From Lingula anatina (taxonomy: Eukaryota; Animalia; Brachiopoda), in the NCBI GenBank assembly GCA_051362555.1, contig CM120644.1:7386954-7450953 (forward strand): a stretch of DNA of 64,000 bases. The letters run 5' to 3'. The translations under genes and the position numbers were made by a program. Positions 3,014-62,330 of this stretch are shown here, piece by piece. A model generated the notes under the pieces. That model was not told the DNA's origin, did no database searches, and saw nothing but the letters and a program-made list of their open reading frames with translations. Each line of letters starts with the position of its first letter. Positions within the stretch are counted from its first letter, which is position 1.

Positions 3014-4568
3014 GTGAGAAATATGCGTAGTTTCAAGTCTGGCAGGTGACATTTTATTTATTTATTTATTTTTTTTTTTCATAATTATATTATTTCATGA
3101 TGCTTACCATTGTTCATTTAGGTGGATTGTTATTATTTTTTCCTACATGTACATGCTTTTTTTTGTTTTTAAATATTTATGTTTTAAACAGAGGTGAATG
3201 TTCAGCTGGTGTGTATGTGTGTGTAATTTATATCCATTTCAGTACTTCCATTTGTATCAACTTGTTTTATCTATGTGTTCAATATTTTGACTTTAATCCC
3301 TAGGCTACTGAAAGTGTCAGATTCTGTGATTTGTCATATTAAATTGAAAATATAATTAATACTCTTATTTAACGCAAATGCAGAAGAGGGGACAGTTGGC
3401 CAAAGAATAATCTGTCAGTAGTAAAAAAAAAAAGAGTATTGATTACATGTTTGTGTATTTCACTGTAACATATGCATCCACTTGTGTGGATGAAAATGAC
3501 AATATGAATACAATTTTTTGTGAATATGTTATTAAACAATCACAATGAGTAAGGATATTTACTTATTTACTATTAAAAAAAAAAAGTTTCTATTACTACT
3601 ATTACTCAATTGCCGATGAGTGCAGCACTGTCTTGTAGATCCCTCCTAGCAAAAGCGGAGGAGAGAAACTGAGCTAGTGAAATAAGGGTTTCTTTTTCTT
3701 GACATTTCATAATTAACATATACGTATATTAACATATACTAACCTATTGAATATATTGAGTATTGATTATATCAAGTGTTATAACAGAACACCTTGATTA
3801 TAAACAAACATAACTTTTAGAACCTTGTTTGGCCAGCTACATGTAAGTGAGTTTCAGCAGCTCCTATTGGGGGCGCCACCAGTTGGTGTGTACAATGTCC
3901 AAGTTCAAAATGTACATTTGTACATGCTTTGAATTTGAACTGATGCAAATTACACTTGTACATATAACCCAGCTAGGCATCTAGCCAGCAATTTTAAAGC
4001 TGGGGGATCTTTTTTTACTGAAAGAAATGAACCTTTTTTTCTGTGAAACCTAAGCTTTTATTTCAGTTGGTAGATCAAGAGAACTTATAGGGTGGATTTT
4101 GATTCAGATTGGACATTTTCTCACCAAAAAAAGCGGTTATTTCTAAACCACCACTAAACCCCCTGCCCATATATATATATAGTTGCCTGCATCCAGTCTG
4201 TCTATTGACCCCATGTACTGTGTGTGTATTAAACTCTTCATGTCACAATAATATCCCCAGACAATGATTAGTATAAATTAATAGACCCAGAGGCATGTAT
4301 CCAAAATGCGCTCTTTCCATGTCACGTAAGGTCATGTTTGCTGACAACTTATAATTGGACTTATATATTATCTTATCTGTAGGGAAGATGTATCCCAGGG
4401 GGTCATCTAATTACTTTTTTTGTTTTTTGTTTGTTTGTTTTTTTTTTCTAATTCATGCACATACACGTGAATTAAGATTACATGCTTACATATAATGAAA
4501 GGTATAATGAGCATAATTAATAAGTAGCATACATACCGGGTACACTGTATTCTTGATTACACTTACAT

Positions 4569-8556: not shown

Positions 8557-8825
8557 GTAAAGTCTGAGAAATGTGGGCTTAGGAAATGGGGATGTTAAGG
8601 AAATTAAAGGGGGGATGGAGTAAATTAAAGGAACTTTTTTGTGCTTTGTCACTCCTCTCTACCTACTGCATATGCCCTTATTTTGCTATAATCTGATAAG
8701 GTTTGATAAGTGAACAATTAGGTTCAAAACTAAATATTTAACTAAGTATTTAAGGATCTTTAATTTGGCCAAAGGAGACAGGTGGAAGAAGATTTTTTTT
8801 CCCTTGACCTCTACAAACCCATGTA

Positions 8826-8929
8826 TCTTTACATATACATGCATGCACACACTACCAGTATACTATTACCTACTCCATGCACACACACACCTCTACTCCC
8901 CGTACACACTCCTACACCACCTCCTGCAC

Positions 8930-8961
<32 letters not shown>

Positions 8962-9025
8962 CTATACCCTCCCACACACACACCTATACCCCCCGACACA
9001 CACACACACACACACATACACACAC
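8826..9025. repeat. CA-rich low-complexity/(CA)n tract
   Basis: Direct inspection. Confidence 0.9.
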
Positions 9026-10113
9026 GTACTGCGTTAATCCAGAATGCATGCACACCAAAACAAAGTTTACTTTCTGTGAGGTCATCAGACAACCCAATCA
9101 ATTCACCAGGCCTTAGGCCAAGTGTCTCTGTAAATATCTCACCACTTGGTACAGGGAAACTCCACATTTAATTTCCTTAATAAAGAAAATTGTATGCATT
9201 GGAGCCAGATTTACAAAAACCTTTGACTTTTTCCGCGTTACAAGGCTTGTGGGCTTAATCTTTTTTCTGTGATCCACGCGTCAAGAATTGATTAACAATG
9301 CCTTAATGTCAGCATTCATAAATGCAAGATGACTAAGAAAGCAGCCCCCTAGCTCCACCCACCTTTTAGTAGCTAACTCCTTCTTAATTAAAAAGCCAAA
9401 ATCATATTGACTTCTGTTTAGATATTTTGTAAATAGATTTTCTGGCAAGTAAAGCTAATAAACCAGTAATGATGGCCTTATCTGATGAATATATAAGTAA
9501 GGTGTACATGCAGCTTGGCTCACTTTTAGCATTTAATTCTCTTCAGAGATCAATGTAACCTTGTTTGCTTTATGAATTTTGAATAATGTATCTATTTTCA
9601 CCTGGCCATAGATTTAGAATAGAAGGGCGCTTGGTTTAACATACTATAGTAAGTAAGGGATTCATGTTGTTGTAGCTCTATTGACGACCTTGTGAAAGAA
9701 AAACAGAAATATTGACTGGACAGCAACTTACAGTTAAAAAAAAAAGGTTGAGAACAACGAAGTCTCTGCAACAGACTGCCATTTGTTGTAGTTCACTGTG
9801 CCAGTTAAGAAGTAAGAAATAGTAGAACTGATAGAATTTTCTTATTATTTAAGAAAGCTTGAGAATTACATGCAGTCTGATTGGCACTTACAATTTATAT
9901 TTCTTTTCTTTTTTTTTTTGTTTGTGCCTCACTCTCTCACTTGGCCACTTTGATAATAGTAACTGTAAAGTTATTTACCCCTCCCCCTTTTCTCCACATT
10001 GTTCATCCACCTACTTCCTCCCAGCCACCCTCCCCCCCCCCCCAAATAAAAAAAAGAAACAAGACATCAATTAATAAAATGACTCTCTATTTGATATTGG
10101 TGGTGGTAGATTA

Positions 10114-10178
<65 letters not shown>

Positions 10179-12105
10179 AGCCCTTTTCCTCTTAGCCACT
10201 CTAACTACGTAAGAGTTGTGTTACCCAGCAAACCAAATCCCATAAAATCATGAGTCCTCATGAAACGCCAATTCACTTCTAGATAAGCCGAGCCTAGATC
10301 ATTATTTACTCATAGCGAGCTGTTATCACGCTGACAGGGCTAAATGCTGTTTACGATAGTGGAATAATGTTGATGTTGCTAGCATAAGGTTTTAAATTGT
10401 TTGAACACGAGCGTGTGCTGGCATACGTCTCCGCTGAGGTCACTTCAATAAAATGCGCGAGCATGCAAATGGTGTTTGTTTATGCATTTTGTTACTAATG
10501 CATATAAGAAACCACCCCCATGCTTTGACAGATGAAGTATACATAAAAGGAAATTAAAGGTTACATGGATTCTATAGTTGTTATTCAAAAACAATAAATA
10601 TGATGTTTATTGACCTTTTATATCTATTAATAATGACCTGAGGGCTATTGGGAAATGACAAGGCTACTTATAGAGGTTATTTGTGTCAGGTTAAGTGAAG
10701 ATAAGTATTATGTTAGCAATTACATAATAATATTATTTTGTTTTAGTCTAGTCAGTATATCTGCTATATTTGCCATGCACACGGTCTTAATCTTCTCAAT
10801 TACATGTAACATTCAAACCAAAAGAATGTTCTTGTAAAGGGATGAAAATATCAAATAATTTTTTCCCTTGTCACACTGCAGCTCCTTCGAAAGTTGCATT
10901 AGATGTCATAAACTCATTTAGTATGAGCTGAAATAAATGAACAGTTATATGGTGAAAGGAATAATTACACAGGTATATAATAGCATGCATGCCTATTATG
11001 ATAGTGGTTCACTGAATTGAATATATTTTCACTTATTTCTGTAGCTTAATTGTATGTCTTCAGCAACAGATGCCTTTTTAGTGGTACCCGTACAGTTTAC
11101 TATTGGGTTATTATTTTTCAAATATTAAGTCATTCTGATGTGAAATCTTTGATACAGTACATCAGTTATCTAATATTCTATCATTCACACATGCAAAAGA
11201 GCACATGCTTAATTAATTAAGGCATGAAAAGCATATCATGCATGCAATTACGAAATTGCCATAATATCATATTAATATATGGCCCAAAAAATTGTCATTT
11301 ATAATTTGTCTTTCAGCTAAATTGCACGAAATCTGTAACCTGCTTCCTGTTAGATTTATATCTTACTTGGAAATCCCTCATCTCTCTTCTTTATTAACTG
11401 AGTGTGATAATTTGATATTGGTGGTGGTAGATTTCCAAAGATACGTAGTTTTTTTTTTGAGGCACAGGTGTATACATGCTCTTCGTAAATTTGCAATTAT
11501 ACTTTGAAAACATTTATCTAGTATTCTTGGTGACTGTAATTTGATATTGGTTGTGGCAGATATCTGAAGTCGTTCCCTAAAGATCTCAGTATGTACACCA
11601 TTTTCCAGGACTTATTGCATTTCTGTGTACCTTATAAAACATGCCTGAGTCTTTGAAGTCTTTAGCTGGCAAATTATTGCCATGAAATACCCCATGAAAA
11701 TGATTTTGCTCAGATTTTCAATAGAAAAGTATCAGAACATTTGATTTTTTAACAGGAGAAAAATGCTCTTTTGCCTTAAGATTTTTTTGTGGCCCTTGTC
11801 ACAGTGATTTTTTAAAGATTTTATTTGATTGCATTCAGCGAGAGTCCCTGTGGAATTAGTGCGCTGTAGCTGGGTGGATAAATACATTGTGAATGGACCC
11901 TTATACATTTTATTTAGTGTAAGAGTGAAAACCTGTGAGACTATTGATTCAGTGATTTCATTGCTGGTTGCCTCGATCAAGCTTCATGACAGACATTAAA
12001 TGAAGTGCACTTGAAGAAATGGCTTTATTTAGCCTGAACGTTGTGAATTGTGAAGAAACTGAATAGATCATGTGCACTTTAAGAATCTTTAAGTGCCAGT
12101 GACAC

Positions 12106-12170
<65 letters not shown>

Positions 12171-14202
12171 GTAATTCATTTGAATCAGGCCTGTGGGGAG
12201 GGGTGGGGGAGGGGGGCTAGAAAGAACTGCCCTCTTAGCTCTAAATCATAATTCCGTCTACCATTATCAATATAGGTTCCATGCCTGATTTTCTCACATT
12301 GTGTCCACAAATTTAAGGTCACCGTGGTAAAAAGGATTTTTTTCAGAATAAGCCCCCCCCCCCTTTGAAATTTCTGGTTAGCTGATGGCACGCTTCCAGT
12401 AGATGCAGACAGCATCAGCAAAAAAAAAAAAAAAAAAGAAAATGACATTGTTTTCAACATCCTATGTTATGTGATGCAGATCAATCAGATCTAAGAAAAC
12501 AGATTGATTTAAAAGTGCATTAGAGCTTATACTGAAGCTGGGTGTCCAGGAGATTAGTCTTTATTGCCTCTGTCTTCATACCTTATATATATAGCTACTG
12601 GTGCACAGTTACACAGTGTTAGGTTTAATGAAAAGGCACCTGGATTTGTGGGTTGATGAAAATAATGTTTCAGCACCTGAGATCGATGTACTGTACTGGT
12701 ATGGTAGTGACTCACACTTTCAAATAGGCAAAATTGTGAATTTTGGGCTGAATTATACAGGTACTTATTTCTATAGGTCTTAAATTCAAAGTTGAAGAGC
12801 CGGCCATCTTTTAGTTCTCTTTTATACTGTAAAAACACCACAACTGCTATATAGATATATTATTATAGTGATTTGAAAATCATGTTTTAGATGATTGATT
12901 ATTTTTCCCCCTTGAAAAGATGAGAGATGCCAATTAATCTCTGGAAATACAAAATCTGGAGTTTCTAAAATTTTGCTCAGTGGGAGAGAGGGGGAGTTTG
13001 GTTATTGCCGTTGTGCTCGGGGGGGGGGGGGGGGGGGGGGGGGACCAATCTCTCATCTCAACACCCCTCCCCCACCCCACAAACAATTAGAAGAGGATTA
13101 TGAAGCTGATGGTGGTGCAAATTTCCAAAGTGGCTTTTATCAGGGAGATTTGGCTACTCATACTGGAGACCGAGAGATTTGTTCTGTATCAGGGAGACTC
13201 CCGGATTATCTCGGAGAGTTGATCAGTATGAAAGATCGAGTTATTACCGTATGCTAACTGGGCTGCCGCTTCACAGCAAATAACGACAGAATCCCAGACA
13301 CAAAATGAGATAAAATAGACATATAGTATCAGCTATTGCACTTAATAGACACCATTAAGTGAATGCTTCTTCATTCTCTTTGATAATTCATCACTCTGAA
13401 CACAGACAACTTACGGAATTGAGAGATTGGTGATAGATTACTGAATCTGCATGTTGAATGTTGCAAAGAAAGATGTGAGGAAAAACTATCATAAGGTTGT
13501 CACAGACTAAATTGATAGCAGATAGATCATACAGCCTGTACTTGAAACCCAGCATATAATCTTTATTGCTACCCACTCCAGGCATGTTGATATGTGCGTG
13601 CTTGTCCTGCACTGAGGGTACTTAGATACAAATAGAGATAGGTGGCTGTGTGATTTTTTTTTTTTTTTGAAATTTAAATATTTACTAGTATATGAACAGC
13701 ACAATTTTACATGGGGTATTTTGATTCCCTGGAACTTGATCATGTATATGACAGATGCAAGCTAGGTAAACTGTTACTGTGCTGGTCAGTGGTTAATCAT
13801 AAACAAATATCTAAAAAAAATATCGCAGCATGCTACTCTGTTCCTGTTAGAGAACATATACAAATAACATATCAGTTCATCTGCAAAACAGTTTAACATA
13901 TACCAGTAAGACAAAGTAGAAAGGAATGACACAAAATGGCAATCTTGAAGGATATATCGTAAGTCTAGACTTATATACACAGACAGTTAGCAATTTTGGA
14001 AGATATTATAACACAAATGGATAACACTGAAGGATATAAATAGTTTTACATAACATACTGTAGTACAGATCACATTGCAGGATAGAAGACAGACATCATA
14101 CTGAAGGGCAGCACACCATGTAGCACAGAGGGATAACATGTATGTATGTTGATATAACACAACAGGATAATAGTAAGGGATAACAGATAAGGTATATGGC
14201 AA

Positions 14203-14275
14203 TTAAGGATAACTGATGGATAACACTAAGGATAACTGATGTATAACACTAAGGATAACTGATGGATAACACGGA
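14203..14275. repeat. ~23-bp minisatellite (taaggataactgatggataacac x3)
   Basis: Direct inspection; degenerate copies extend upstream to ~14020. Confidence 0.8.
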
Positions 14276-15304
14276 TAGGTGACCACTCATGACCACGCAT
14301 TAAGGACGATATTGACACACACGAGTACGTGTGAGGTGGATAACTGCTGGGTGCATGTAGACTGTCTGATGATGTCACTGAATCTCATTCAGGTTTGGTT
14401 TAATTGCCTATACTGTCATTGTGAGGTTTTATAAAAGGATGATAATTTTATTGTAAAAATTAAAAAGAATTACTTGTACATTAAGTGCCACTAGAAGGTT
14501 TTTTTAATAACCCTTATAGGAGCGAATTTATTGATCTGAGATAATAAGGAGTTTGTTTGCAACAACATATGCGACATGACAAGACTTACTGAGGGAATTG
14601 CTCCCTGCAGGATTGTGGAAGTGAATTAGACCTACAAAGGGGAAAACTAAACAAATTATTATCCCACTCAAGGTGCGTGACTTGTTTATGAATGGTATCA
14701 GTTGTCTAACTGTACGTGTGACTTGATGCAATACTCCCTTGTTCAATTAAGACTGTTATGAAAATATCACCGTTCATTGTCTGAGCACTGGCATTTCAGA
14801 CAGTATTGTAGATATACATATATTATCATTTACGTAACCAGTTTTGTATGTATGTACTTTTGTTTAAGGAAGCACTGTTGTTAAATACATATCAGTGACG
14901 ATAAGCCAATTGAAAGTAAACTGAACTTTTAACAAAACATAATAGAATAATTGAAAACTGATGCCACTGAACCTGAAGAATTATTGTCTTTGCAAAGACA
15001 AAACTGTCTGAACTCGAACAAAGCGATGACTTGCTGTACAGTGTACATGTGCTAAATGTACTTGTGACAATTAAGAAACATTGTTTAAGATGTGACGCCA
15101 TTCAGTCAGTCAAGTGTGGTCGCACTGCACCAAGACGTATTAAATATTTACCAGGAAAGAAAACAGGATATGGTTTTTAGGATCTTGTTTCCTGCCTACG
15201 TGTCTTCATTGTATAAACCTCACCTATCCGTCATTGATGAGAAATTTTTAAGTTTCGCAGGAAACAGGAAACAAGCAAGACTACCCTGAAAAGATAACAA
15301 TTTA

Positions 15305-15454
15305 CTGGCCCGTAACCAGAGTGGGTGTTGTATGAACCGGCCTTTTTAATTGTCAGGATAAGAACCCCACCGGGTAAAATTTGATCTATGTAAAAGATCC
15401 ACTTTTTCAGAAACACCCCCCCCCCCCCTTTTGAAATTGCTGGCTACAGGCCTG
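15305..15454. mobile_element. Diverged copy of the ~170-bp CAGGCCCGTAGCCAG-TIR MITE
   Basis: Ends gaaattgctggctacaggcctg; shares the tccactttttcagaaa core. Confidence 0.8.
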
Positions 15455-16826
15455 GTTCAGTACAATGTCCTTATTAGCAGTAGCTGACACGTACTGCAGA
15501 TTTGTATTTATAGTTGACAACTGATGCTATATATGAACCCAAAGAACTGTTGCTTTAATTAAGATAAAAATGCCTGAACCCAAACAAAACATATACAGGT
15601 GTTGATGATAATTCTGTTAGATGAAAACGTATCGACAGATACTATATAAAACAAGCTAGCACAATATATGCCATTGATTTGAAAGTACATGTAAGCTAAA
15701 TGAATGTAACACGAAGCATTCTAAATGTAGAATTAAGATACCTGTATTTATCCATACGGAATGACAGATCACTGCTGTCACTGAATTAAATTGTTGTCAT
15801 TTTAAGGCTAATCATGAAGTAAAGCAGCAATTAACTGATGTCACCTCCCAATGGTTTGTATGTCATAGGCAACAACTGGGAATTGAATGTGTTATTGTAA
15901 GTGTAGACAGTGCTAATTCATATCTCGTAGAATAACAGTGGATGAATATCAATGAACTCAGCAGTTGCTGTACAGAATATATATCTTGCTCTTCTGTATG
16001 TGGTTCAGCCTGTTGTGCTGGACTTAAAGGGAAACACTTGGGTTTCACAGAGCTGAAGTAAATATTCAAGGAACTTGTAGGCAGTTTTTTTCAATATCTT
16101 GTGAAGAACACAATAATGTGTCAATGTGTAATGGTTGAAGAGTGGTAACACTCAAGTCTAGCTCTTCAAGTACATGTCTAACAGAGAAGTAAAGTTAATG
16201 AACTTGAGCAGTTGCCTCGTTATCTAGTCATTAGTGTAATGCACAGTGTCAATGATACTCCCTAATAAAATTATTGTAAGGTCAGTTTTGTTGAAAACAG
16301 GATGAAGCTACTCTTATATTAACAGTTAGAGAACTGAAGTCGATGAACTGACACAGTTGTCTTTATTAAGTGTAACAGAGCCAGTGACCCTTGAATATGA
16401 GATTGAATATAAATATGTGTTGCAACCATAGAGATTAACACTTTTGGACACTTGACCAGGGTGGACGCTGCTTGGACACACTTATCTGTTGTCCAGCTTT
16501 CTTTCCAAAGTATATGGTGTTTTTATCACCACTGTGCTTTATTCTCTGCCATAAACTGCTGTCAGCTCAGTGAATGGTCTGATGGGATCATAACAAGTTT
16601 AAAGCAATCGCCATCACTTGGACAAAATCAGTTGGAGCTCTCACCGTTATTAATTTCGTTTTAAGAACTGCAGATTAATTGCACAACTGTGCTCATTGAG
16701 TTGTGTGAAAACAATACTGAGTGTCCAGCTACGAAACAATTGCGGAGTTGATGACCATTAGATAAAAATCATCAAATGAATACTAGTTGCTTAAACAGAC
16801 TCTGAGGATAAAGCTGACTCCTGACT

Positions 16827-16867
16827 ATGCTGTTTGATGCCAGGGATATTGCAGTGTTAACTCTAAG
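16827..16867 (+). CDS. Candidate third alternative first exon 1c (MLFDARDIAVLTL-R)
   Basis: actATG; open to AG|GTAATG phase-2 donor; lacks the W..LDK motif, so weaker. Confidence 0.4.
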
Positions 16868-16924
16868 GTAATGAGACAAAGGATCAGTGTGAAAGTTTTC
16901 AAAGTTTGTGGGAAATGTGTAAGA

Positions 16925-17530
16925 GGTGACACTGTGTTGGATGTGACATTTTGTGTGAAGATTTGGTGGGAAATATGGAGCTTTTATTTATTTTTATTAT
17001 TATTATTATTTTTTTTTTTTTGTTATGTAGTATATTTGATGTGACATACTTTTGGGTGGGGCCGTGTTAGATGTGACACTGTGTTGGATGTGACATTGTT
17101 GAATGTGATACTGTGTTAGATGTGACACTGTGTTGGGTGTGACATTGTTGAATGTGATAATGTGTTAGATGTGACACTGTGTTGGATGTGACATTGTTGA
17201 ATGTGATACTGTATTAGATGTGACACTGTGTTGGATGTGACATTGTTGATTGTTGTACTGTGTTAGATGTGATACTGTGTTGGATGTGACATTGTTGAAT
17301 GTTGTACTGTGTTAGATGTGACACTGTGTTGGATGTGACATTGTTGAATGTGATACTGTATTATATGTGACACTGTGTTGGATGTGACATTGTTGATTGT
17401 TGTACTGTGTTAGATGTGATACTGTGTTGGATGTGACATTGTTGAATGTTGTACTGTGTTGGATGTGACATTGTTGAATGTTGTACTGTGTTAGATGTGA
17501 CACTGTGTTGGATGTGACATTGTTGAGTCT
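16925..17530 (-). repeat. Minisatellite, ~49-bp higher-order unit built from 17/15/17-bp subunits (gtgttagatgtgacact)
   Basis: About ten higher-order units between 17060 and 17525; reverse complement of the dispersed 17-nt cacacctaacacattgt repeat. Confidence 0.92.
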
Positions 17531-18076
17531 AACTGCAGTTGGATCGATCTATGTAGAATGATAGTTTTATTGGGAATTAACCCTATATATATATGGATAA
17601 TTCTCCAGCTACAAAGTTAATTAAGCCAAATAGACCTTAGCTGATAATCAAAGTTTATATTTCTTTGAAGTTAGATAATCAGGAATAGAGGCATAAGCTT
17701 TCGGAAATTGATTTTGCCAATTAGGTGGTATTCCATTTAATGTGATTAACCCACTGTATTGATTATGTTCAGTATATATTTAGCTTTTTTTTCTTTTGTA
17801 AGATTAGAATATATATTTTCAAGTTATTATATTTTAATATAGTGTATGCTGACAACAAGAACCACTTTATACAGCTGATTTATAATGTGAATAATGCCAG
17901 TTGTTGTTAGACTTCTTCAGATTAGAAAGAATTTTAGGCATGTTTATTACTAGTGCATCAAAATAAACTTGAACATTTACTAAAGCAGCTCAGGTTTCAT
18001 ATAGCAACATACACTCATCTCTATGTAAATGCATGTTTGTCTGTATAGGTGAACATGCATGTTTGCATATGCATGT

Positions 18077-18080
<4 letters not shown>

Positions 18081-18120
<40 letters not shown>

Positions 18121-18140
18121 GTGTGTGTGTGTGTGTGTGA
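18081..18140. repeat. Compound (CT)n(GT)n microsatellite; another at ~57680-57775
   Basis: Direct inspection. Confidence 0.95.
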
Positions 18141-19169
18141 GTGCTTGGCTGTTTGGGTGAACATGTGTTTGCATGCAGACTATGTGTGCATACAGTGTGT
18201 GTGTATGTGTGTGTGCATATATGCACAAAATTGCTGGTACATGTTCACACCAGATCTAACTTAGACTTAGCAAGTAATGCCTATGTACTTCCTTTTACAG
18301 TCTTAGTCTTGATATCAATGCAGCATATGTAGAGCGAATTGCCAGTAAAATAGGAATTAGGAAATTGCTTATTTATAAATTAAATTTAATATTCCTTCCT
18401 GTAAGACTGAGTTTTGAACAATATGAAACGAGTAATTTCTACATGCCTATGGGAGTCAGTCATAGCTGGGATGGAAAAATGCCAGCATATTTATATATCA
18501 GAGGTTGTATGAAATATTTAGTCTTTAATAATGCATTATTAATTGCAAGTAATAGTGTTTATCATGAAATTTTCAAGTATTTTTTCTCAGTGCTTTCTGT
18601 ACAATTAAATTAGAAAAACCCAAGCAATTTTGCCATCCCTGTCCTCTTTTTTGTACATAGCAAAATTGTTTTACATTTATGGAGCGTAGCAATTTTTTAT
18701 CACTGTGCTCCCCCAGCTTAATTATGGTAGATTCCAGGACCCACCACACAGTTTTATATTCGTGTCAAAAAAAAAAAAAAATGTCTGTGGGTAGAAACAG
18801 CACACATCATCACTGTGCCTTGATTCTCTTTCAACAAGAACATTTAAGCAAAGAATATGTCATAAGAAATAATTTTAATTACACCCAAAACACCAGAGGC
18901 ATTTGGTGACAGGGTACTATATAGATACAATATGCTGGTAGATATAAATACTGCTTTTTATATAATAATAAAGTAAAGCCCAGTAAGAGATAAAGGTGCC
19001 TGGGAAAGGGGGCATTATGGGTAATAAAGCCGCAAGTACTCTAAATAAAGCTAGGGTTACGTAACAGCGAAGATAGATGAGACTTTATTATCACATAGAA
19101 CACATCTGCACACAATCCCTGGATCTCACCTAACACAATGTATGATGGCTCTTGTTGCTATGGTTGCAG

Positions 19170-21520: not shown

Positions 21521-21680
21521 GGGCAAAGAACCTGCCTTTTTGCTGGGAAAAGTTCCACTCTGGGTAAATTTTTTGTCTAGGTTTCATGGTAAAATTTTAT
21601 TAAGGTTTCATGGTGAAAGGTTCACTTTTTCGGAAAAAGACCCCCCCCCCCCCCTTTTGAAATTTCTGGCTATGGGCCTG
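21521..21680. mobile_element. Left-truncated copy of the CAGGCCCGTAGCCAG-TIR MITE
   Basis: Ends ctggctatgggcctg; internal ~20-bp duplication. Confidence 0.8.
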
Positions 21681-23987: not shown

Positions 23988-24155
23988 CAGGCCCGTAGTC
24001 AGGGGGGGTTCGGGGGGTTCGAAAGAACTGCCCCTTTTGCTGGGAAAAGGTCCACTCTGGGTAAAGTTTGATCTAGGTACAAGAAGTTTTTATGGGAAAA
24101 GGTCCACTTTTTCAGAAAAAGAACCCCCCTTTTGAAATTGCTGGCTACGGGCCTG
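23988..24155. mobile_element. Intact 168-bp MITE, 15-bp TIR, 5-bp TSD CATTG
   Basis: cattg|CAGGCCCGTAGTCAG...CTGGCTACGGGCCTG|cattg. Confidence 0.92.
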
Positions 24156-25669: not shown

Positions 25670-27995
25670 GTGAGTTGATTTTTTTTTCTTTTTACTATCA
25701 TTATTTGATCCACTGTCAAGAATTGTGATAAAACATTACAAATATTTGTGAAAGAGCATGTTTCCTGCAGGGCTATCATGTTTTAGCATGGTTAAAAATT
25801 GAGATAGTTTTATTGATAATCCATATAGCCAGGTATGTGATGCATATTGTATTTCAATAACATATTCGTATGCAGGGAAACGTGAAAGGAATATGAGTGT
25901 GTATGTGCATGATAACTATTAAATATCCTCTCTCTCTGTACTTGTTATTTAGATGTTATTTAGAAAGATTGATGGAGTTGAATAAGACATGAATACTATC
26001 ATTAAATTGTTGCAATATCAAAGTTGAAAGATAATTTTATGATGATTGATTATGAAGAAAAAACCCGGACACTGCAGACACAGTGCATGCGCTTAACTGG
26101 CACATTGATATACGACAGAAAGAAAAAGCTTATCATTTATTACATCTCTCAATGTCTCCTGCATAACTAGTTTATTTCTGTAGACCCATGGATGGAGATA
26201 ATACAACTTGATGGGGTTGGTCTCACGATGTCACCACTACCGGAAAATTAGTTCTTTAAATGGGTATGTGTGAGGATCACACAGCATATTGTGTTCACTT
26301 TTGTTTTGGCCACATTATAGATAATTATTATATTAGTTTAATAGTGTTCATGCTGGACTAGCTACCACGTGCACAGAACTTTAGACTGTGCCATGTTGTA
26401 TTTGCATGAAGCAGATCCAGTCTTATTTGAAAGTGGTACTGAGAAATACTGGAATAATTGCCACATTTGAAATTGCTAAGAAAATGCCGTAAAGGTGAAT
26501 GAAGAAGATATAAGCACTAAGTCAGAGGAAAGATCAACCGTGACAGACAGTCTTCAAGAAAAATGATTGTCTTTTGCACACAAATGTGAAATGGATTTTT
26601 TTTTCTTTCACATCAAAGTGAAAGGGATCTGGAGTCACATTGCTGAATGTGTTTTGAGGAGAAAATGATTTTCTTGCACAAAATTACGAGGGATCTAGAA
26701 TCATGCTGCTGATATATCAGTGAGACATTCTTCTAGAAAGTTAGACATTTTGCCTTCAGGAAAGTCTGATTATATTGAAAAGCTAGAAATCTGAGCTGAC
26801 ATTCTTAGGGGAGTTTTCTATTATTTCAGAGATAGACAGGAGTAATGTGGTGTCAAAGCAGCAGCTATTATCTTCAAGAAAAATGATACTTTTGAGGCAG
26901 ATTTAGATTTAATATAATATTTTAGATACACAAGCTACTAAATAGAAAGTATTGAATGATCTTGTTGAAAATGGTGTTAAGAAATTCAGGTTTATTACTA
27001 TTATGAAGAAGGTCTTTATTCAAACTAGATAGGTTCTAATCTGGTTAAAAGTTGGTTCTCATATCGTTTACAGTTGGTTCTGATTCAGTTTAGAGTTGGT
27101 TCTGATAATGTTAAGAGTCCAGGTTTGATAGGCTTATTGGGTTTTGATAGAATTTATGTGGGTTCACAGTTGATTGCAAACAGTCAAGGTTGATTGCTTG
27201 ATCTAAGAGACCCAGTGGCAAACAATCTGAATAATATTTTTTAATGTGATTTTCACCTCTGATTGAGTGTGTACTCTTGAAGGTGACATACATTGCTGGT
27301 CAAGAGGACAAGCAATATCAAAGTCAAACCTTTCATAACCATGCAGGGAATCTATTTCACAGAGAATGCTTAAAGTAACGTACAGCACATAGCTTAATTT
27401 CTTATTATGGCCTTGTTTGCTAAATTTCCATTTGGCAAATGGCACTGGAACAACTATTGCTGATTCAGAACTAATAGGATGGCTTTTTTTGTGAAATAAA
27501 CCCTTGTTTATGAAATTATTGGAAGGGTTCAACTAGGTCTTAATGATGTACCCCTGCAGCAGTAGAGGGGATTTGAACCCTGGATGCTGGTGATTAGCGG
27601 TCTAAAGCTGCATGATTTCATGCATCAGTAAAATGCACAATTTTGTAGAATAGATCTTTAGATCAATATCATCTTATGCATGAGAATTTGTATATCCCCG
27701 GCCATAGGCCTGTCACTTTCACAGACTAGATTATTCTTAAATTCCCTGTTTATTTATGATTCAGTGCTTTGGCGTGATTTGTATTTGGTTGTTCGTTTGA
27801 TTGTGTTAAAACTTCAGGTTTAAATGCCACCATTGTGAAGATTTGACAGCCTATAGCTCTTCTGAGGTCTTGCAAGACAATTTGCTACTTTCAAGCTGAT
27901 AAGTAAACTAAATGAGGATTTGAACTTTACATTTTGCTGTTTGTCTTCCTGAGTGGAATACATGTATTTCATGCACATGACTATCCCTTACGAAA

Positions 27996-28395
27996 ATTTC
28001 CTATAGGATTTCCTATAGGAAATCCTATAGGATCCTATAAGATTTCCTATAGGATTTCCTATAGGATCCTATAGGAATTCCTATAGGATCCTATAGGAAA
28101 TTGTCCCTTTTTCCTATAGGATTTCCTATAGGATCCTATAGGATTTCCTATAGGATCCTATAGGATTTCCTATAGGATCCTATAGGATTTCCTATAGGAT
28201 CCTATAGGATTTCCTATAGGATCCTATAGGAAATCCTATAGGAAATCTTATAGGATCCTATAGGAAATCTTATAGGATCCTATAGGAAATCCTATAGGAA
28301 ATCTTATAGGATCCTATAGGAAATCCTATAGGAAATCCTATAGGATCCTATAGGAAATCTTATAGGATCCTATAGGAAATCTTATAGGAACCTAT
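27996..28395. repeat. Left subterminal array of the palindrome TCCTATAGGA (right array ~31820-31935)
   Basis: About 30 or more copies at 10-13-bp spacing; spacer polarity switches near 28220. Confidence 0.97.
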
Positions 28396-28539
28396 AAAAA
28401 TTTTTATTAACTGCTTTGAATATTTTTACAGCTTTTTATATATTGTTGGAACTTTGGCAAAATTGGTTATAGGCACTGGTCCCTCAAAACAAAAGAGAGT
28501 ATCATGTTTACATTCTTTATTCAATATATAAAAAAAAAT

Positions 28540-28902
28540 TTAATGTACATATTCCACAGTATGGTATGCAACCAGCTTACTAGAGAATTGTTTCATAGAT
28601 TTTTGCAAATTTAACGATGCTGCTCCTGCGTTTGAATTATAAGTTCTATAAGTTATCACAAGGATCAAATATGTCTTGTCAAGCTGTGGCGTCACTGTCT
28701 TTTTCTTGTGCGCGTTCGAACTCCTGCCAGAATGAGTGGCTAAAACCTCCCTTGGCCAGATTGTGTACATTGTCAGCATACTGCTTTAGTCACTTCATAA
28801 TTGAAGAATTTCAGACAAAAGTCTTTTGCACATTGTTCAACTTTACTGTGATAGTCTTCTTAAACTCCGTCTAAGTTGTGTTGAACCATTTGCAGACGCT
28901 TT
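28540..28902 (-). pseudogene. Decayed terminal exon encoding a BEN-domain-like peptide inside the transposon
   Basis: IWPREVLATHS-GRSSNAHKKKTVTPQLD resembles BEN consensus (recalled BEND6 YMATHSLTGAKSSTSRDKAVKPAMN); minus-strand tctttctttcAG acceptor at 28903-4, TAA at 28540, AATAAA at 28516-21; stops in the 5' part. Confidence 0.65.
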
Positions 28903-29226
28903 CTGAAAGAAAGACATTGTGAATTTCAATTAATTGTACATGTCTACAAAAATGCAAAATGATGAAGGAAAAATTTTCTAATGAGATCAATAATAATCAT
29001 TGCACCAATTTTATTTTGAGCAATTCATAGCCTTTATTGGTTAACTGTTTTTTTTTCAAAGACAAGGTATTAAAGCTCGATAATTTGTAAAAAAAATTTT
29101 TTGAGAACTTGAACATATTTCATAGAACCAAGCCCACAGGAACAATCAGAAACGAATTTTAAAATGCAGAAATCAGCAGTGGAGAAAACTCTACTCTGGT
29201 TAAATATGCAATTGGGCCATTATAAA

Positions 29227-29560
29227 GCTGTCAGGGCAAAAAAAGTCTCAAAAATTCATGGAAAACTAATTTCCGAGGGTAAACAGTAATTCCCTATATT
29301 CTGACCAGTCTTTGCTTGACTTAAATCATCATTCCAAACCACAAAAAAAAGCAACCCCTAAGTTAAAATTTATAGCTTCCGTGTCAGATTTTCACAATGC
29401 ACATTTCATTTCCAATATGTATAGGTAAGCAAAAAATATTTTTAAACAAACTATGGTGTTTACCTCACATTTAGGGTTGAAAAGAAATTAAAGGAAAAGA
29501 AAACTTGGCAAATAAACGATCCTGAAGAACATGTGAGGTAATGAAATTTGCCCTGACAGC
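29227..29560. mobile_element. Nested ~334-bp element with perfect 14-bp TIR GCTGTCAGGGCAAA
   Basis: 29227-29240 is the reverse complement of 29547-29560; TSD unclear. Confidence 0.6.
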
Positions 29561-29686
29561 CTCTCTAACATGTAAATTGTATTTTATTTATTAGCATAGG
29601 TCTTTCTCAGTTATATATCATGATGGTTCCTTAGAGGCAGTTGTGGATAACATTAATAGATAATTTTTAATAAATCACAAACCAAA

Positions 29687-29804
29687 AGTTGAATGAAATG
29701 TAATTTTTTTTAGATTCAACTCTATTTATAGAAATATTTTGATGCCAGTTGAATGAAATGTAATTTTTTTTAGATTCAACTCTATTTATAGAAATATTTT
29801 GATG
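29687..29804. repeat. 60-bp-period tandem duplication
   Basis: Two near-identical copies. Confidence 0.92.
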
Positions 29805-30301
29805 AGCAATTGATCACAGTTTTATAAGAAATAAAGAGAATAAACAGTATTTCTTTGTTGGCTAAAAGGGAAGCTATACTTTATAAATTATAACTTGTTT
29901 AATGTAATATAGATATGATGTTTACAAGGTACACTACAAATTAGATCAATTATCTCATTTTCAATTTGATTAGATGCCCAAATGATCCAATTAATGCATT
30001 ACTGTAATACATACCTTCCTCAATCTGAATTTTCTACACTCTGTACCCATCCACTATGCTCCTGAATTTAAACTGGCTTGATAGCTGTATACTCATTTGC
30101 TGCTTGTCTCATATAAACAAAGACTTAGACAGGATACCACACATCTGATAACACCTAATAGGCGGTTACTGTTACTAGTGTAACAATAGCTACAGGAGTA
30201 GTGACCTAATAATAGGTGCCAGGCTAACAAAAGAAATTCACAGTTGTTGAATCTATGGTTATGGTTGGTGGAGTAGGGCATTCTCTAGCTAACATCAGTT
30301 G

Positions 30302-30468
30302 CAGGCCCGTAGCCAGCAATTTCAAAAGGGGGGTTCTTTTTCTGAAAAAGTGGACCTTTTCCCATAAAAACTTCATGTACCTAGATCAAATTTTACCCAG
30401 AGTGGACCTTTTTCCAGCAAAAGGGGCGGTTCTTTCGAACCCCCCAAACCCCCCTGGCTACGGGCCTG
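30302..30468. mobile_element. Intact MITE copy nested in the large transposon, 5-bp TSD AGTTG
   Basis: agttg|CAGGCCCGTAGCCAG...CTGGCTACGGGCCTG|agttg. Confidence 0.93.
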
Positions 30469-30719
30469 AGTTGACTGTTAAATCTTACAAGTGATTGAGC
30501 ATAAAATTTATCTTTATAATCATTAATTTGTCCTTGTTCCCCATCCTTTATGAGGGACAGTACTATACCCTTAATGTTCACTTACTTTTACATTATACAG
30601 TATTTTATATATTAGGCAGGATTGCACTTTCACTTTTTAAAACAGCCAAGGTCAAGTACAGTCTGATTAGATCAGGTTGACTTTCAATAAATATGAAATA
30701 TGAAGTGAATATGATCACA

Positions 30720-31510
30720 CAAAAAGTAAAAATACATTATATACTGATATTTAGACCAGTTTCATTATTTTTCATTCAACCTGGCCTTATAAAAATTCAC
30801 AATTAATATGGATTAACATAGGATTTCCTATATATAGGTTCCTATAGAAATTCCTATAAGATTTCCTAAAGCATCCTATAGTAAATTTTTATGGTCTGAA
30901 CATAAATTAAAAATCAAAATCATATACTGATAATTAAACCAGATTCATTATTTTTCATTCAACCTGGCCTTACAAAAATTCCCTATATGAATTGGCATAG
31001 GATTTCCTATAGGAATTCCTATAAGATTTCCTGTAGGATCCAATAGGAATTTTTGTAATGGTCCGAAAATAAATTAAAAATCAAAATCATATACTGATAT
31101 TTAAACCAGATTCATTATTTTTCATTCAACCTGGCCTTATAAAAATTCCCTATATGAATTATATTAGCATAGGATTTCCTATAGGTTCCTATAGAAATTC
31201 CTATAAGCTTTCCTATAGGATCCTATAGAATCCTATAGAATTTTTTTTAATGGTCTGAACATAAATTAAAAACCAAAATCATAAACTGATATTTAAACCA
31301 GATTCATTATTTCGGCCTTATAAAAATTCCCTATATGAATCAGCCTTGGATTTCTTATAGGTTCCTATTGAAATTCCTATAAGATTTCCTATAGGAAATC
31401 CTATAGGATCCTATAGGAAATCTTATAGGATCCTATAGGAAATCCTATAAGATCCTATAGGAAATCCTATAGGATCCTATAGGAATTTTTGTAATGGTCT
31501 GAACATAAAT
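30720..31510. repeat. ~180-bp tandem repeat x4, each unit carrying TCCTATAGGA motifs
   Basis: actgatatttaaaccagattcattattt...ggccttataaaaattc recurs near 30740, 30920, 31090, 31280. Confidence 0.88.
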
Positions 31511-32815
31511 AAAAAAAAAATCAGCTTCAGTGATTTGGTACAAAAACATTCCTAATGATAAAATATTTCTCCATAAAAGATTACTTTAAAATGATCAATT
31601 TTTTTCAAAAATTCTTTAAAAAAAAAATTACAGAATTTCTATAGAATCCTATAGAAGACTATAAGATTGTGCATTATAAACAATAAAAAGCATTTTTGCT
31701 TTAATAGTGATATATAATTGACAATTCAACTGATAAAATGGACCTATATCAAATATCTATTGTTTAGAATGATATATGTTTATAAAATATGCATTTTTCT
31801 CAAGATTTTAACTTACAACAATTTCCTATAGGATCCTATAGGAAATCCTATAGGAAATGTGCCCTATAGGATCCTATAAGATTTCCTATAGGATTCTATA
31901 GGATCCTATAGGAATCCTATAGGATCCTATAGGAAATTTTCGTAAGGGATCTTACAGCTTAATATGAAATTGGTTCTATTTTTTTGTTATTTTTGTAACA
32001 ATTGCATGTATATGTCAATCACAAAACAGGCTTCATATTACACTAAAGTTCACCCCTTTAGCCTTTGATAAGACAAGGATGGAGGGTAAGAATAACACCT
32101 AAAAGTTGATGAATGTTTCAAAAATATATTTGTGATGAATGATGAGGTTTAAGACCCGAGGTTGATGGCAATATATCAGTATAATTGCAGTGATTTTGAA
32201 CATTGATTTTAGCTGGAACTTCAGGGTGATCAATCATGCTTTTCATTGAACATATATATAAATATAATACATTTTTACTTTTAATAATAAGATCAATATT
32301 TTGCAATATAGGTTAAAATGGGGAATTAATTAAAAACCCTATAATATATTCTATTAATGTTGCCTAAAGGTTTTCAAGAGTCATCATCTATTGCCTGTTA
32401 GAATCAGACCTTGCATTAGCCTGTGTCTGAGTATATTGGAGAGAATGGAGCCAAAGAAAGGACAGTTCATGCAGTGAGATACATGTATGGCCATTTTCTA
32501 GGGAATTTTCATTGAAATTGTCCTGACATATTCTTATAGGACAGCTTTTATGGTCAGATGATGTTTTTCAAGAGAATGTTTTCTATAAAAATTGTACACA
32601 GATAGTTTTATTTGGATAGCTTTTGTGGCCAGATAAACTGCATGACATATTCAGCACTTCATTGTAAGAAAAATGCAATGACATGATGAATGAGAAGGTA
32701 AAAGTTATTTAATGTCAATTTTTGAGATACCAATACCTCACTTTTTTCTGTATAATTATGTTAAACTTCCAAAATATACAGTTTTCAGTACTTTATAGCA
32801 CAAAACCAACTATAA

Positions 32816-62173: not shown

Positions 62174-62330
62174 CAGGCCCATAGACAGGGGGGTTCGAAA
62201 GAACCCACTTTTTGGCCGGAAAAGGTCCTCTTTGGATAAAATTTTATATAGGTTCATGAATGTATCATGATTAAAGGTCCACTTTTTCAGAAAAAGAACC
62301 CCCCTTTTGAAATTGCTGGCAAAGGGCCTG
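62174..62330. mobile_element. Copy of the CAGGCCC-TIR MITE; more diverged copies near 3975-4170, 12330-12390, 56361-56565
   Basis: caggcccatagacag...ctggcaaagggcctg. Confidence 0.85.

What the first reader, a model, noticed from the sequence alone, without database searches (positions are those of the whole stretch)
28516..28904. BEN-domain relic carried by a transposon whose ends are arrays of a BEN-like palindrome
Seen: inside the TIR element, the minus strand has an acceptor, a decayed exon reading IWPREVLATHS-GRSSNAHKKKTVTPQLD, a stop and AATAAA. A second exon-like piece lies at 30015-30061 (AG..GTATGT, EHSGWVQSVENSD). Known: BEN domains are DNA-binding modules, Drosophila Insensitive binds the palindrome TCCAATTGGA, and plant CACTA elements use a second protein (TnpA) to bind subterminal repeats. 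Inference: this family may encode a BEN protein as a TnpA-like end-binding factor for TCCTATAGGA, which differs from the Insensitive site only in the central bases. It could thereby spread BEN gene copies and clustered BEN sites. The BEN call is by eye.
Basis: partly seen in the sequence, partly recalled or inferred. Interest (0 to 1): 0.8.

Follow-up and report, generated by a model that had tools for sequence, protein, structure and literature searches.

The report
Transposon carrying a decayed BEN gene
A multi-copy cut-and-paste jumping element in an animal intron carries a broken DNA-binding (BEN) gene that is still spliced in RNA from sister copies, and the gene likely descends from a helper protein that would bind the palindrome arrays carpeting the element's ends.

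Summary
Window 27985-31948 is a 3,964-bp element with perfect 25-bp CCC terminal repeats, an AT target duplication and 75 TCCTATAGGA-like palindromes at its ends, inside an Epac-like intron. The minus-strand segment hits Pfam BEN as its only family (E 2.4e-4, 21.7 bits, just under the 23.2 cut-off). Genomic depth is similar over the BEN segment and the element ends, and far above the flanks, so the segment is family-wide, not a one-off capture. RNA from 4 of 4 runs (2 studies) joins the 30015 donor to the 28902 acceptor across a GT..AG intron. No intact ORF, transposase or close homologue was found, and binding is untested. Termini match animal CACTA/EnSpm (TRC) elements. Best reading: a non-autonomous deletion derivative of a two-gene EnSpm-like element whose BEN protein is a TnpA-like end binder (about 0.6). 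Rival: an amplified captured host gene (0.25). I did not find the pairing in print, but this scan has noted it in other animals.

The parts
27985..31948 (.). Whole non-autonomous DNA transposon, 3,964 bp, CCC...GGG termini
   Evidence: summed contig depth steps up from 71-73 in the flanks to 3,500-35,000 in the 26 non-MITE bins inside
27983..27984 (.). Left copy of the 2-bp target duplication (AT)
   Evidence: empty-allele arithmetic table 8 (inferred)
31949..31950 (.). Right copy of the 2-bp target duplication (AT)
27985..28009 (+). Left terminal inverted repeat, 25 bp perfect, ending in the first palindrome
31924..31948 (-). Right terminal inverted repeat, 25 bp perfect
27999..28396 (.). Left array of TCCTATAGGA palindromes: 34 sites with up to 2 mismatches, 28 perfect, mostly 10 or 12 bp apart
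30703..31934 (.). Right subterminal region: four 167-192-bp units with palindrome clusters plus a terminal array; 41 sites with up to 2 mismatches, 16 perfect
28516..28902 (-). Last exon of the decayed BEN gene, from the acceptor used in RNA to AATAAA
28648..28764 (-). Stretch matching Pfam BEN (PF10523) positions 9-47 of 76
   Evidence: E 2.4e-4, 21.7 bits
28814..28900 (-). Second frame with one stop that looks by eye like the last two helices of another BEN domain; not supported by any profile search
   Evidence: translation; no hit; no significant internal duplication
28516..28521 (-). AATAAA polyadenylation signal; minus-strand RNA depth in stranded runs falls to zero here
28903..30014 (-). 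Intron, 1,112 nt, GT..AG
30015..30144 (-). Upstream exon: donor shown by reads, acceptor at 30145/30144 inferred from one loose end
30302..30468 (.). Unrelated nested 167-bp MITE (CAGGCCCGTAG ends, 5-bp duplication AGTTG)
   Evidence: depth 265,000-475,000

Best explanation
This is a multi-copy, transposase-less DNA transposon with animal CACTA/EnSpm-type ends that carries the last exons of a decayed BEN-domain gene, likely the remnant of a helper gene whose protein would bind the palindrome arrays at both ends. Shown: the ends, the arrays, the BEN match, family-wide presence of the segment, and spliced minus-strand RNA from other copies. Inferred: the parent element was longer and carried further 5' exons of the BEN gene and a DDE transposase, both lost from this copy by internal deletion. 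Inferred by analogy to maize TnpA: BEN dimers load on the 10-12-bp-spaced palindromes, help the transposase pair and cut the ends, and may also control the element's transcription. This copy would move only with both proteins supplied in trans.
For: CCC termini, 25-bp TIR and 2-bp duplication match animal TRC/CACTA elements (PMC1636069 passages). Asymmetric subterminal arrays are the TnpA targets in plant CACTA elements (PMC2613891 passages). BEN is the only Pfam family on the predicted frame. Depth over the BEN exon (8,800-18,600) is like that at the two ends (10,300 and 9,100) and over 100 times the flanks (71-73) in DNA run X6 (summed depth, not a copy count). Splice 30015 to 28902 in 4 of 4 RNA runs; in the two stranded runs all 16 joint reads have one orientation. 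An upstream loose end in 11 reads has no match in the window, so longer versions exist. The palindrome keeps 8 of 10 bases of the Insensitive site, including, on my mapping of the crystal numbering, all three major-groove contacts (C4, G10', G11') and A7' (PMC8887127, PMC4281564 passages); a random palindrome matches that half-site this well about 1.6-1.8% of the time.
Against: No transposase remnant in any frame of 28400-30291 or 30470-31821 and no autonomous partner could be searched for, as no genome is held. No intact BEN frame in this copy or evident from reads (40 of 196 differences shown). The BEN score is under Pfam's cut-off, and a tandem repeat in the same call gave a spurious hit of similar E-value (DUF7454, 1.4e-4). 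No homologue (one unrelated hit). The palindrome breaks the Insensitive consensus TCYAATHRGAA at a fixed A on both strands and changes the T9 contact; several other BEN sites are known, which raises the chance of a resemblance. Five related-looking ends in metagenome contigs had no BEN or transposase next to them.
Confidence: 0.6

Rival explanations
1. Pack-CACTA-like capture: an early non-autonomous copy picked up two or more exons of an ordinary host BEN gene and was then amplified; the arrays are bound by the transposase or another protein, and the likeness to the Insensitive site is chance.
For: Only decayed frames seen; no transposase in the element; gene capture by CACTA elements is established in plants (recalled); family-wide depth does not separate early capture from descent.
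Against: Palindrome resemblance to a solved BEN site (p about 0.02 for that one site); diverged copies with an extra 5' exon are transcribed and spliced. Earlier scan notes of intact EnSpm+BEN elements point the same way but are unchecked leads.
Confidence: 0.25
2. The BEN gene is a native accessory gene of the family, but it acts on chromatin or transcription elsewhere (anti-silencing, insulation or protein binding) and does not read the terminal palindrome.
For: BEN domains bind very different sites and some bind no DNA (PMC8887127 passages); plant TnpA proteins also regulate transcription and methylation.
Against: Both ends are carpeted with a dyad-symmetric site of the size and outer bases that a BEN dimer reads.
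Confidence: 0.11
3. The BEN similarity is spurious and the transcript is non-coding read-through with cryptic splice sites.
For: Score below cut-off, half-domain match, no homologue, low-confidence model unlike a helical bundle (mean pLDDT 56.7).
Against: The family and position were named before the scan and BEN came out as the sole hit among 24,736 models; the match lies in the exon with the highest RNA depth.
Confidence: 0.04

Closest known systems
Animal CACTA/EnSpm 'TRC' elements: SmTRC1 of Schistosoma mansoni and Tribolium/Aedes relatives (PMC1636069, passages read)
   Same: CCC termini, TIR of a few tens of bases, 2-bp target duplication, internal repeats, spliced transcripts
   Different: Those encode a Transposase_21-type protein; the passages I read describe no separate BEN gene (I did not search that paper for the word). 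This copy has no transposase and carries large palindrome arrays.
Maize En/Spm with TnpD transposase and TnpA subterminal-repeat binder (PMC2613891, passages read)
   Same: Asymmetric arrays of a short motif in both subterminal regions; second multi-exon product proposed to bind them; deletion derivatives moved in trans
   Different: Plant elements have CACTA ends and 3-bp duplications; TnpA is not described as a BEN protein in the passages seen; binding here is untested.
Drosophila BEN-solo factors Insensitive and Bsg25A (PMC4281564, PMC8887127, passages read)
   Same: BEN domain; 10-bp palindrome with the same outer TCC/GGA bases
   Different: Host transcription factors; site TCCAATTGGA differs at 2 positions; here the gene is decayed and sits in a transposon.

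Membership tests
Animal CACTA/EnSpm (CMC) | Terminal inverted repeats beginning CCC (or CAC) | tested here: met
   25-bp perfect TIR starting CCCTTACG
Animal CACTA/EnSpm (CMC) | 2-bp target-site duplication | tested here: met
   AT on both sides; a contig leaving the window exactly at 31949 fits an empty allele with the expected 30-base overlap only for a 2-bp duplication (letters not seen, one site only)
Animal CACTA/EnSpm (CMC) | Subterminal arrays of a short motif at both ends | tested here: met
   34 left and 41 right sites
Animal CACTA/EnSpm (CMC) | CMC-type DDE transposase in the element or in an autonomous partner with the same ends | tested here: inconclusive
   None in this copy, as expected for a non-autonomous element; partner not searchable
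BEN domain (PF10523) | Profile match at the gathering score | tested here: inconclusive
   E 2.4e-4, 21.7 of 23.2 bits, positions 9-47 of 76
BEN domain (PF10523) | Five-helix fold with middle loop | tested here: inconclusive
   Single-sequence model of the decayed frame is low confidence
TnpA-like helper | Encoded by the element family, not by one copy | tested here: met
   depth; transcripts of diverged copies
TnpA-like helper | Intact reading frame in an active copy | tested here: inconclusive
   Not in this copy; reads incomplete (40 of 196 differences and 12 of 21 indels shown)
TnpA-like helper | Binds the subterminal motif and is needed for transposition | not testable with these tools
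   needs EMSA/SELEX and an excision assay

The most novel reading that the evidence does not exclude
Animal EnSpm elements use a BEN protein as their end-binding helper, TCCTATAGGA is this family's BEN site, and its likeness to the Insensitive palindrome reflects common descent: host BEN-solo transcription factors and their clustered palindromic sites were recruited from such transposons.
Probability: 0.25. Interest if true: 0.75.

Novelty: new variant of a known kind. Interest (0 to 1): 0.5.

Why it matters
If right, it names the animal counterpart of plant TnpA and gives a ready-made test pair: a BEN domain and a candidate site only two bases from a site whose BEN complex is solved. It would also offer a route by which BEN genes and dense clusters of BEN sites spread through animal genomes. 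This copy is itself decayed, and the scan has noted intact two-gene examples elsewhere, so its own addition is the palindrome and the evidence that derivative copies keep and still splice the gene.

Tried and rejected
No genome held, so no search for longer copies. Homologue searches: none for the BEN frame at 44-140 residues or 141-2000, none for the read-through at 192-2000; the full HMMER scan gave one hit, an unrelated secreted-type protein matched on a repeat, rejected. ESM Atlas: no usable hit twice. PDB sequence search: only ribosomal L28e and CFTR at E 0.09 or worse, rejected; none for the second frame. AlphaFold on the single decayed sequence: pLDDT 56.7, not used for a fold search. 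Viral contigs: no relative. Double-palindrome scans of prokaryote genomes and viral contigs gave 3 + 3 isolated matches with no arrays, taken as chance. A terminal-pattern scan of metagenomes gave 32 loci; none matched the inner element or the BEN frame; 5 of the 32 scanned in six frames had no BEN or transposase; no second TIR was found in the 20 examined. The idea of two tandem BEN domains rests on eye only: no profile hit, internal duplication not significant (34 of 300 shuffles reach the DNA score; best protein pair p about 0.07), and a three-row alignment was uninformative. No RNA holder listed by the index; RNA evidence comes from laid raw reads instead.

Full report
Setting. The window is animal DNA, about 34% GC. 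Plus-strand exons at 22.2 kb (cNMP-binding, E 4e-8) and 48.5 kb (DEP, E 2e-12), with further cNMP-like and GEF-like exons by eye near 60.8 and 63.3 kb, indicate an Epac/RAPGEF4-like gene; the finding lies between these exons, so in an intron (inferred). An earlier scan note calls the genome a brachiopod (unchecked). No assembly was available.

The element. 27985-31948 has perfect 25-bp inverted ends starting CCC and is flanked by AT on both sides. TCCTATAGGA occurs 68 times in the window with up to one mismatch, against 1.9 expected; 67 are in the element. With up to two mismatches there are 34 sites on the left and 41 on the right, and 62 of 75 spacings are 10 or 12 bp. In DNA run X6 the summed contig depth is 71-73 in the two flank bins and 3,500-35,000 in the 26 element bins outside a nested MITE. 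The tool warns that this sum is no copy number, but one contig alone has depth 1,748 at 28767, about 25 times the flank, so the family has dozens of copies or more. The BEN bins (8,800-18,600) are as deep as the end bins (10,300 and 9,100): the segment is a regular part of the family. One 500-base contig of depth 40 aligns from 32100 to exactly 31949 and has 52 further bases; read as an empty allele these overlap the neighbouring contig by the expected 30 bases only if the duplication is 2 bp. I did not see those letters, so presence/absence polymorphism, and hence recent movement, is inferred.

The BEN gene. The frame 28785-28543 hits PF10523 alone among 24,736 models (E 2.4e-4, 21.7 bits, cut-off 23.2, profile 9-47 of 76). 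A tandem repeat in the same call produced a spurious hit of similar E-value, so the number alone is not decisive; its weight comes from BEN having been named beforehand at this place. RNA reads from four runs in two studies pile up on 28570-28890 and 29920-30230 and join 30015 to 28902 across a 1,112-nt GT..AG intron: 13 reads in X12, 3 in X13, 28 in X18 and 9 in X19, counting rows listed at 28895-28902 whose intervening letters are the diverged first bases of the exon. In stranded runs X12 and X13 all 16 joint reads have the first mate on +, as do most reads on both exons, and that depth ends near the AATAAA at 28521-28516. The reads differ from the window (in X18/X19 mostly 87-95% alike), so they come from other copies or individuals; transcription of this copy is not shown.

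No joint at 30062 was listed and depth continues beyond it. Eleven X19 reads leave the window at 30147, at a TATCAG acceptor-like site, with sequence absent from the window; I read this as a further 5' exon present in longer copies. No frame is open across the splice in this copy. Working by hand from the 40 of 196 differences shown, the X18/X19 transcripts lack some of the window's stops (at 28873, 28845 and 28788) but have a 4-base insertion near 28677 in about half of the reads, so an intact protein is neither shown nor excluded. The frame just after the acceptor (28900-28814) resembles by eye the last helices of a BEN domain, which would make the protein a tandem BEN; no profile or duplication test supported this.

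No transposase. All six frames of 28400-30291 (in pieces on the minus strand) and of 30470-31821, read with X at stops, gave no transposase family. The BEN gene points its 5' end to the right, where only about 230 bp and the right arrays remain beyond the MITE, which fits an internal deletion that removed the 5' exons and any transposase gene (inferred).

Mechanism. Animal CACTA-like TRC elements have CCC ends and 2-bp duplications (PMC1636069, passages). In plant CACTA elements TnpA binds subterminal repeats, is needed with TnpD for transposition, works in trans and varies with the motif between families (PMC2613891, passages). Insensitive binds TCCAATTGGA as a dimer, with base contacts at C4, G10' and G11' in the major groove and A7' and T9 in the minor groove (PMC8887127, passages; 13-mer and consensus TCYAATHRGAA in PMC4281564, passages). 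On my mapping of that numbering the element's site keeps C4, A7, G10 and G11 and swaps A6 to T and T9 to A. A random palindrome matches this half-site at 4 of 5 or better with probability 0.016-0.018, more if other BEN sites are allowed. The A6 change breaks the fly consensus, so a changed specificity has to be assumed. The helper model is therefore coherent and suggestive, not demonstrated (0.6); early capture of a host gene is the main rival (0.25).

What is in print. Full-text searches for BEN domain with transposon+transposase (9 papers), EnSpm (0), DNA transposon (6, 4 listed), CACTA (2) and transposable element (29, 27 listed) showed no title or abstract start describing a BEN gene in a CMC element; I saw listings for these, and passages of PMC5704228, PMC11601247, PMC10789644, PMC6004678 and bioRxiv 10.64898/2026.08.24.746577, none making the link. 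The founding BEN paper (PMC2477736), the Insensitive structure paper (PMC3613608) and a 2023 Current Biology BEN survey (DOI recalled) were not held, Repbase cannot be searched here, and I read no supplements; any of these could mention it. Within this scan, 22 earlier findings in at least 14 genomes hold the words BEN, domain and transposon, and the eight shown include intact EnSpm+BEN elements; one more proposes CCAAT-like end arrays as BEN sites. These are unchecked leads; they lower the marginal novelty of this instance.

Verdict. A real feature, a new variant of a known kind, interest 0.5.

Noticed in passing
window 30302-30468, 23988-24155, 62188-62330, 21525-21680, 15392-15454, 3982-4037: A 167-bp MITE family with CAGGCCCGTAG ends and 5-bp duplications at the two full copies (AGTTG, CATTG); six copies or fragments in the window, very high genomic depth and abundant in polyA RNA.
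   Followed up: partly
window 28819-28852: Reads in X12 and X13 (11 and 14) show a 34-bp tandem duplication here, a frameshifting variant in another transcribed copy.
   Followed up: no
window 28040-31881 and others: DNA contigs join the left array to the right array at several points (28040/31881, 28120/31212, 28397/31819), each at single-copy depth: short internally deleted derivatives exist.
   Followed up: no
window 28897 and 30015: Loose ends in X12 (5 and 4 reads) suggest that each exon also splices to other partners; the one tested is absent from the window.
   Followed up: partly
window 27032-27118 and about 27210: A 22-bp repeat with GGTTCT cores upstream of a CTGGG-like end candidate; possibly the decayed end of another subterminal-array element.
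   Followed up: no
L001, L003, L005, L009, L018, L023 and duplicates: Animal-like contigs in metagenomes carry CCCT..AAAAA.TCCTATAGGA followed by degenerate copies of the motif; no second end, BEN or transposase found, and several share the same left flank, so the true terminus is uncertain.
   Followed up: partly
window 22199-63604: Epac/RAPGEF4-like host gene exons on the plus strand (cNMP, DEP, second cNMP, GEF region).
   Followed up: partly
window 29687-29804: Perfect 60-bp tandem duplication inside the intron of the BEN gene.
   Followed up: no
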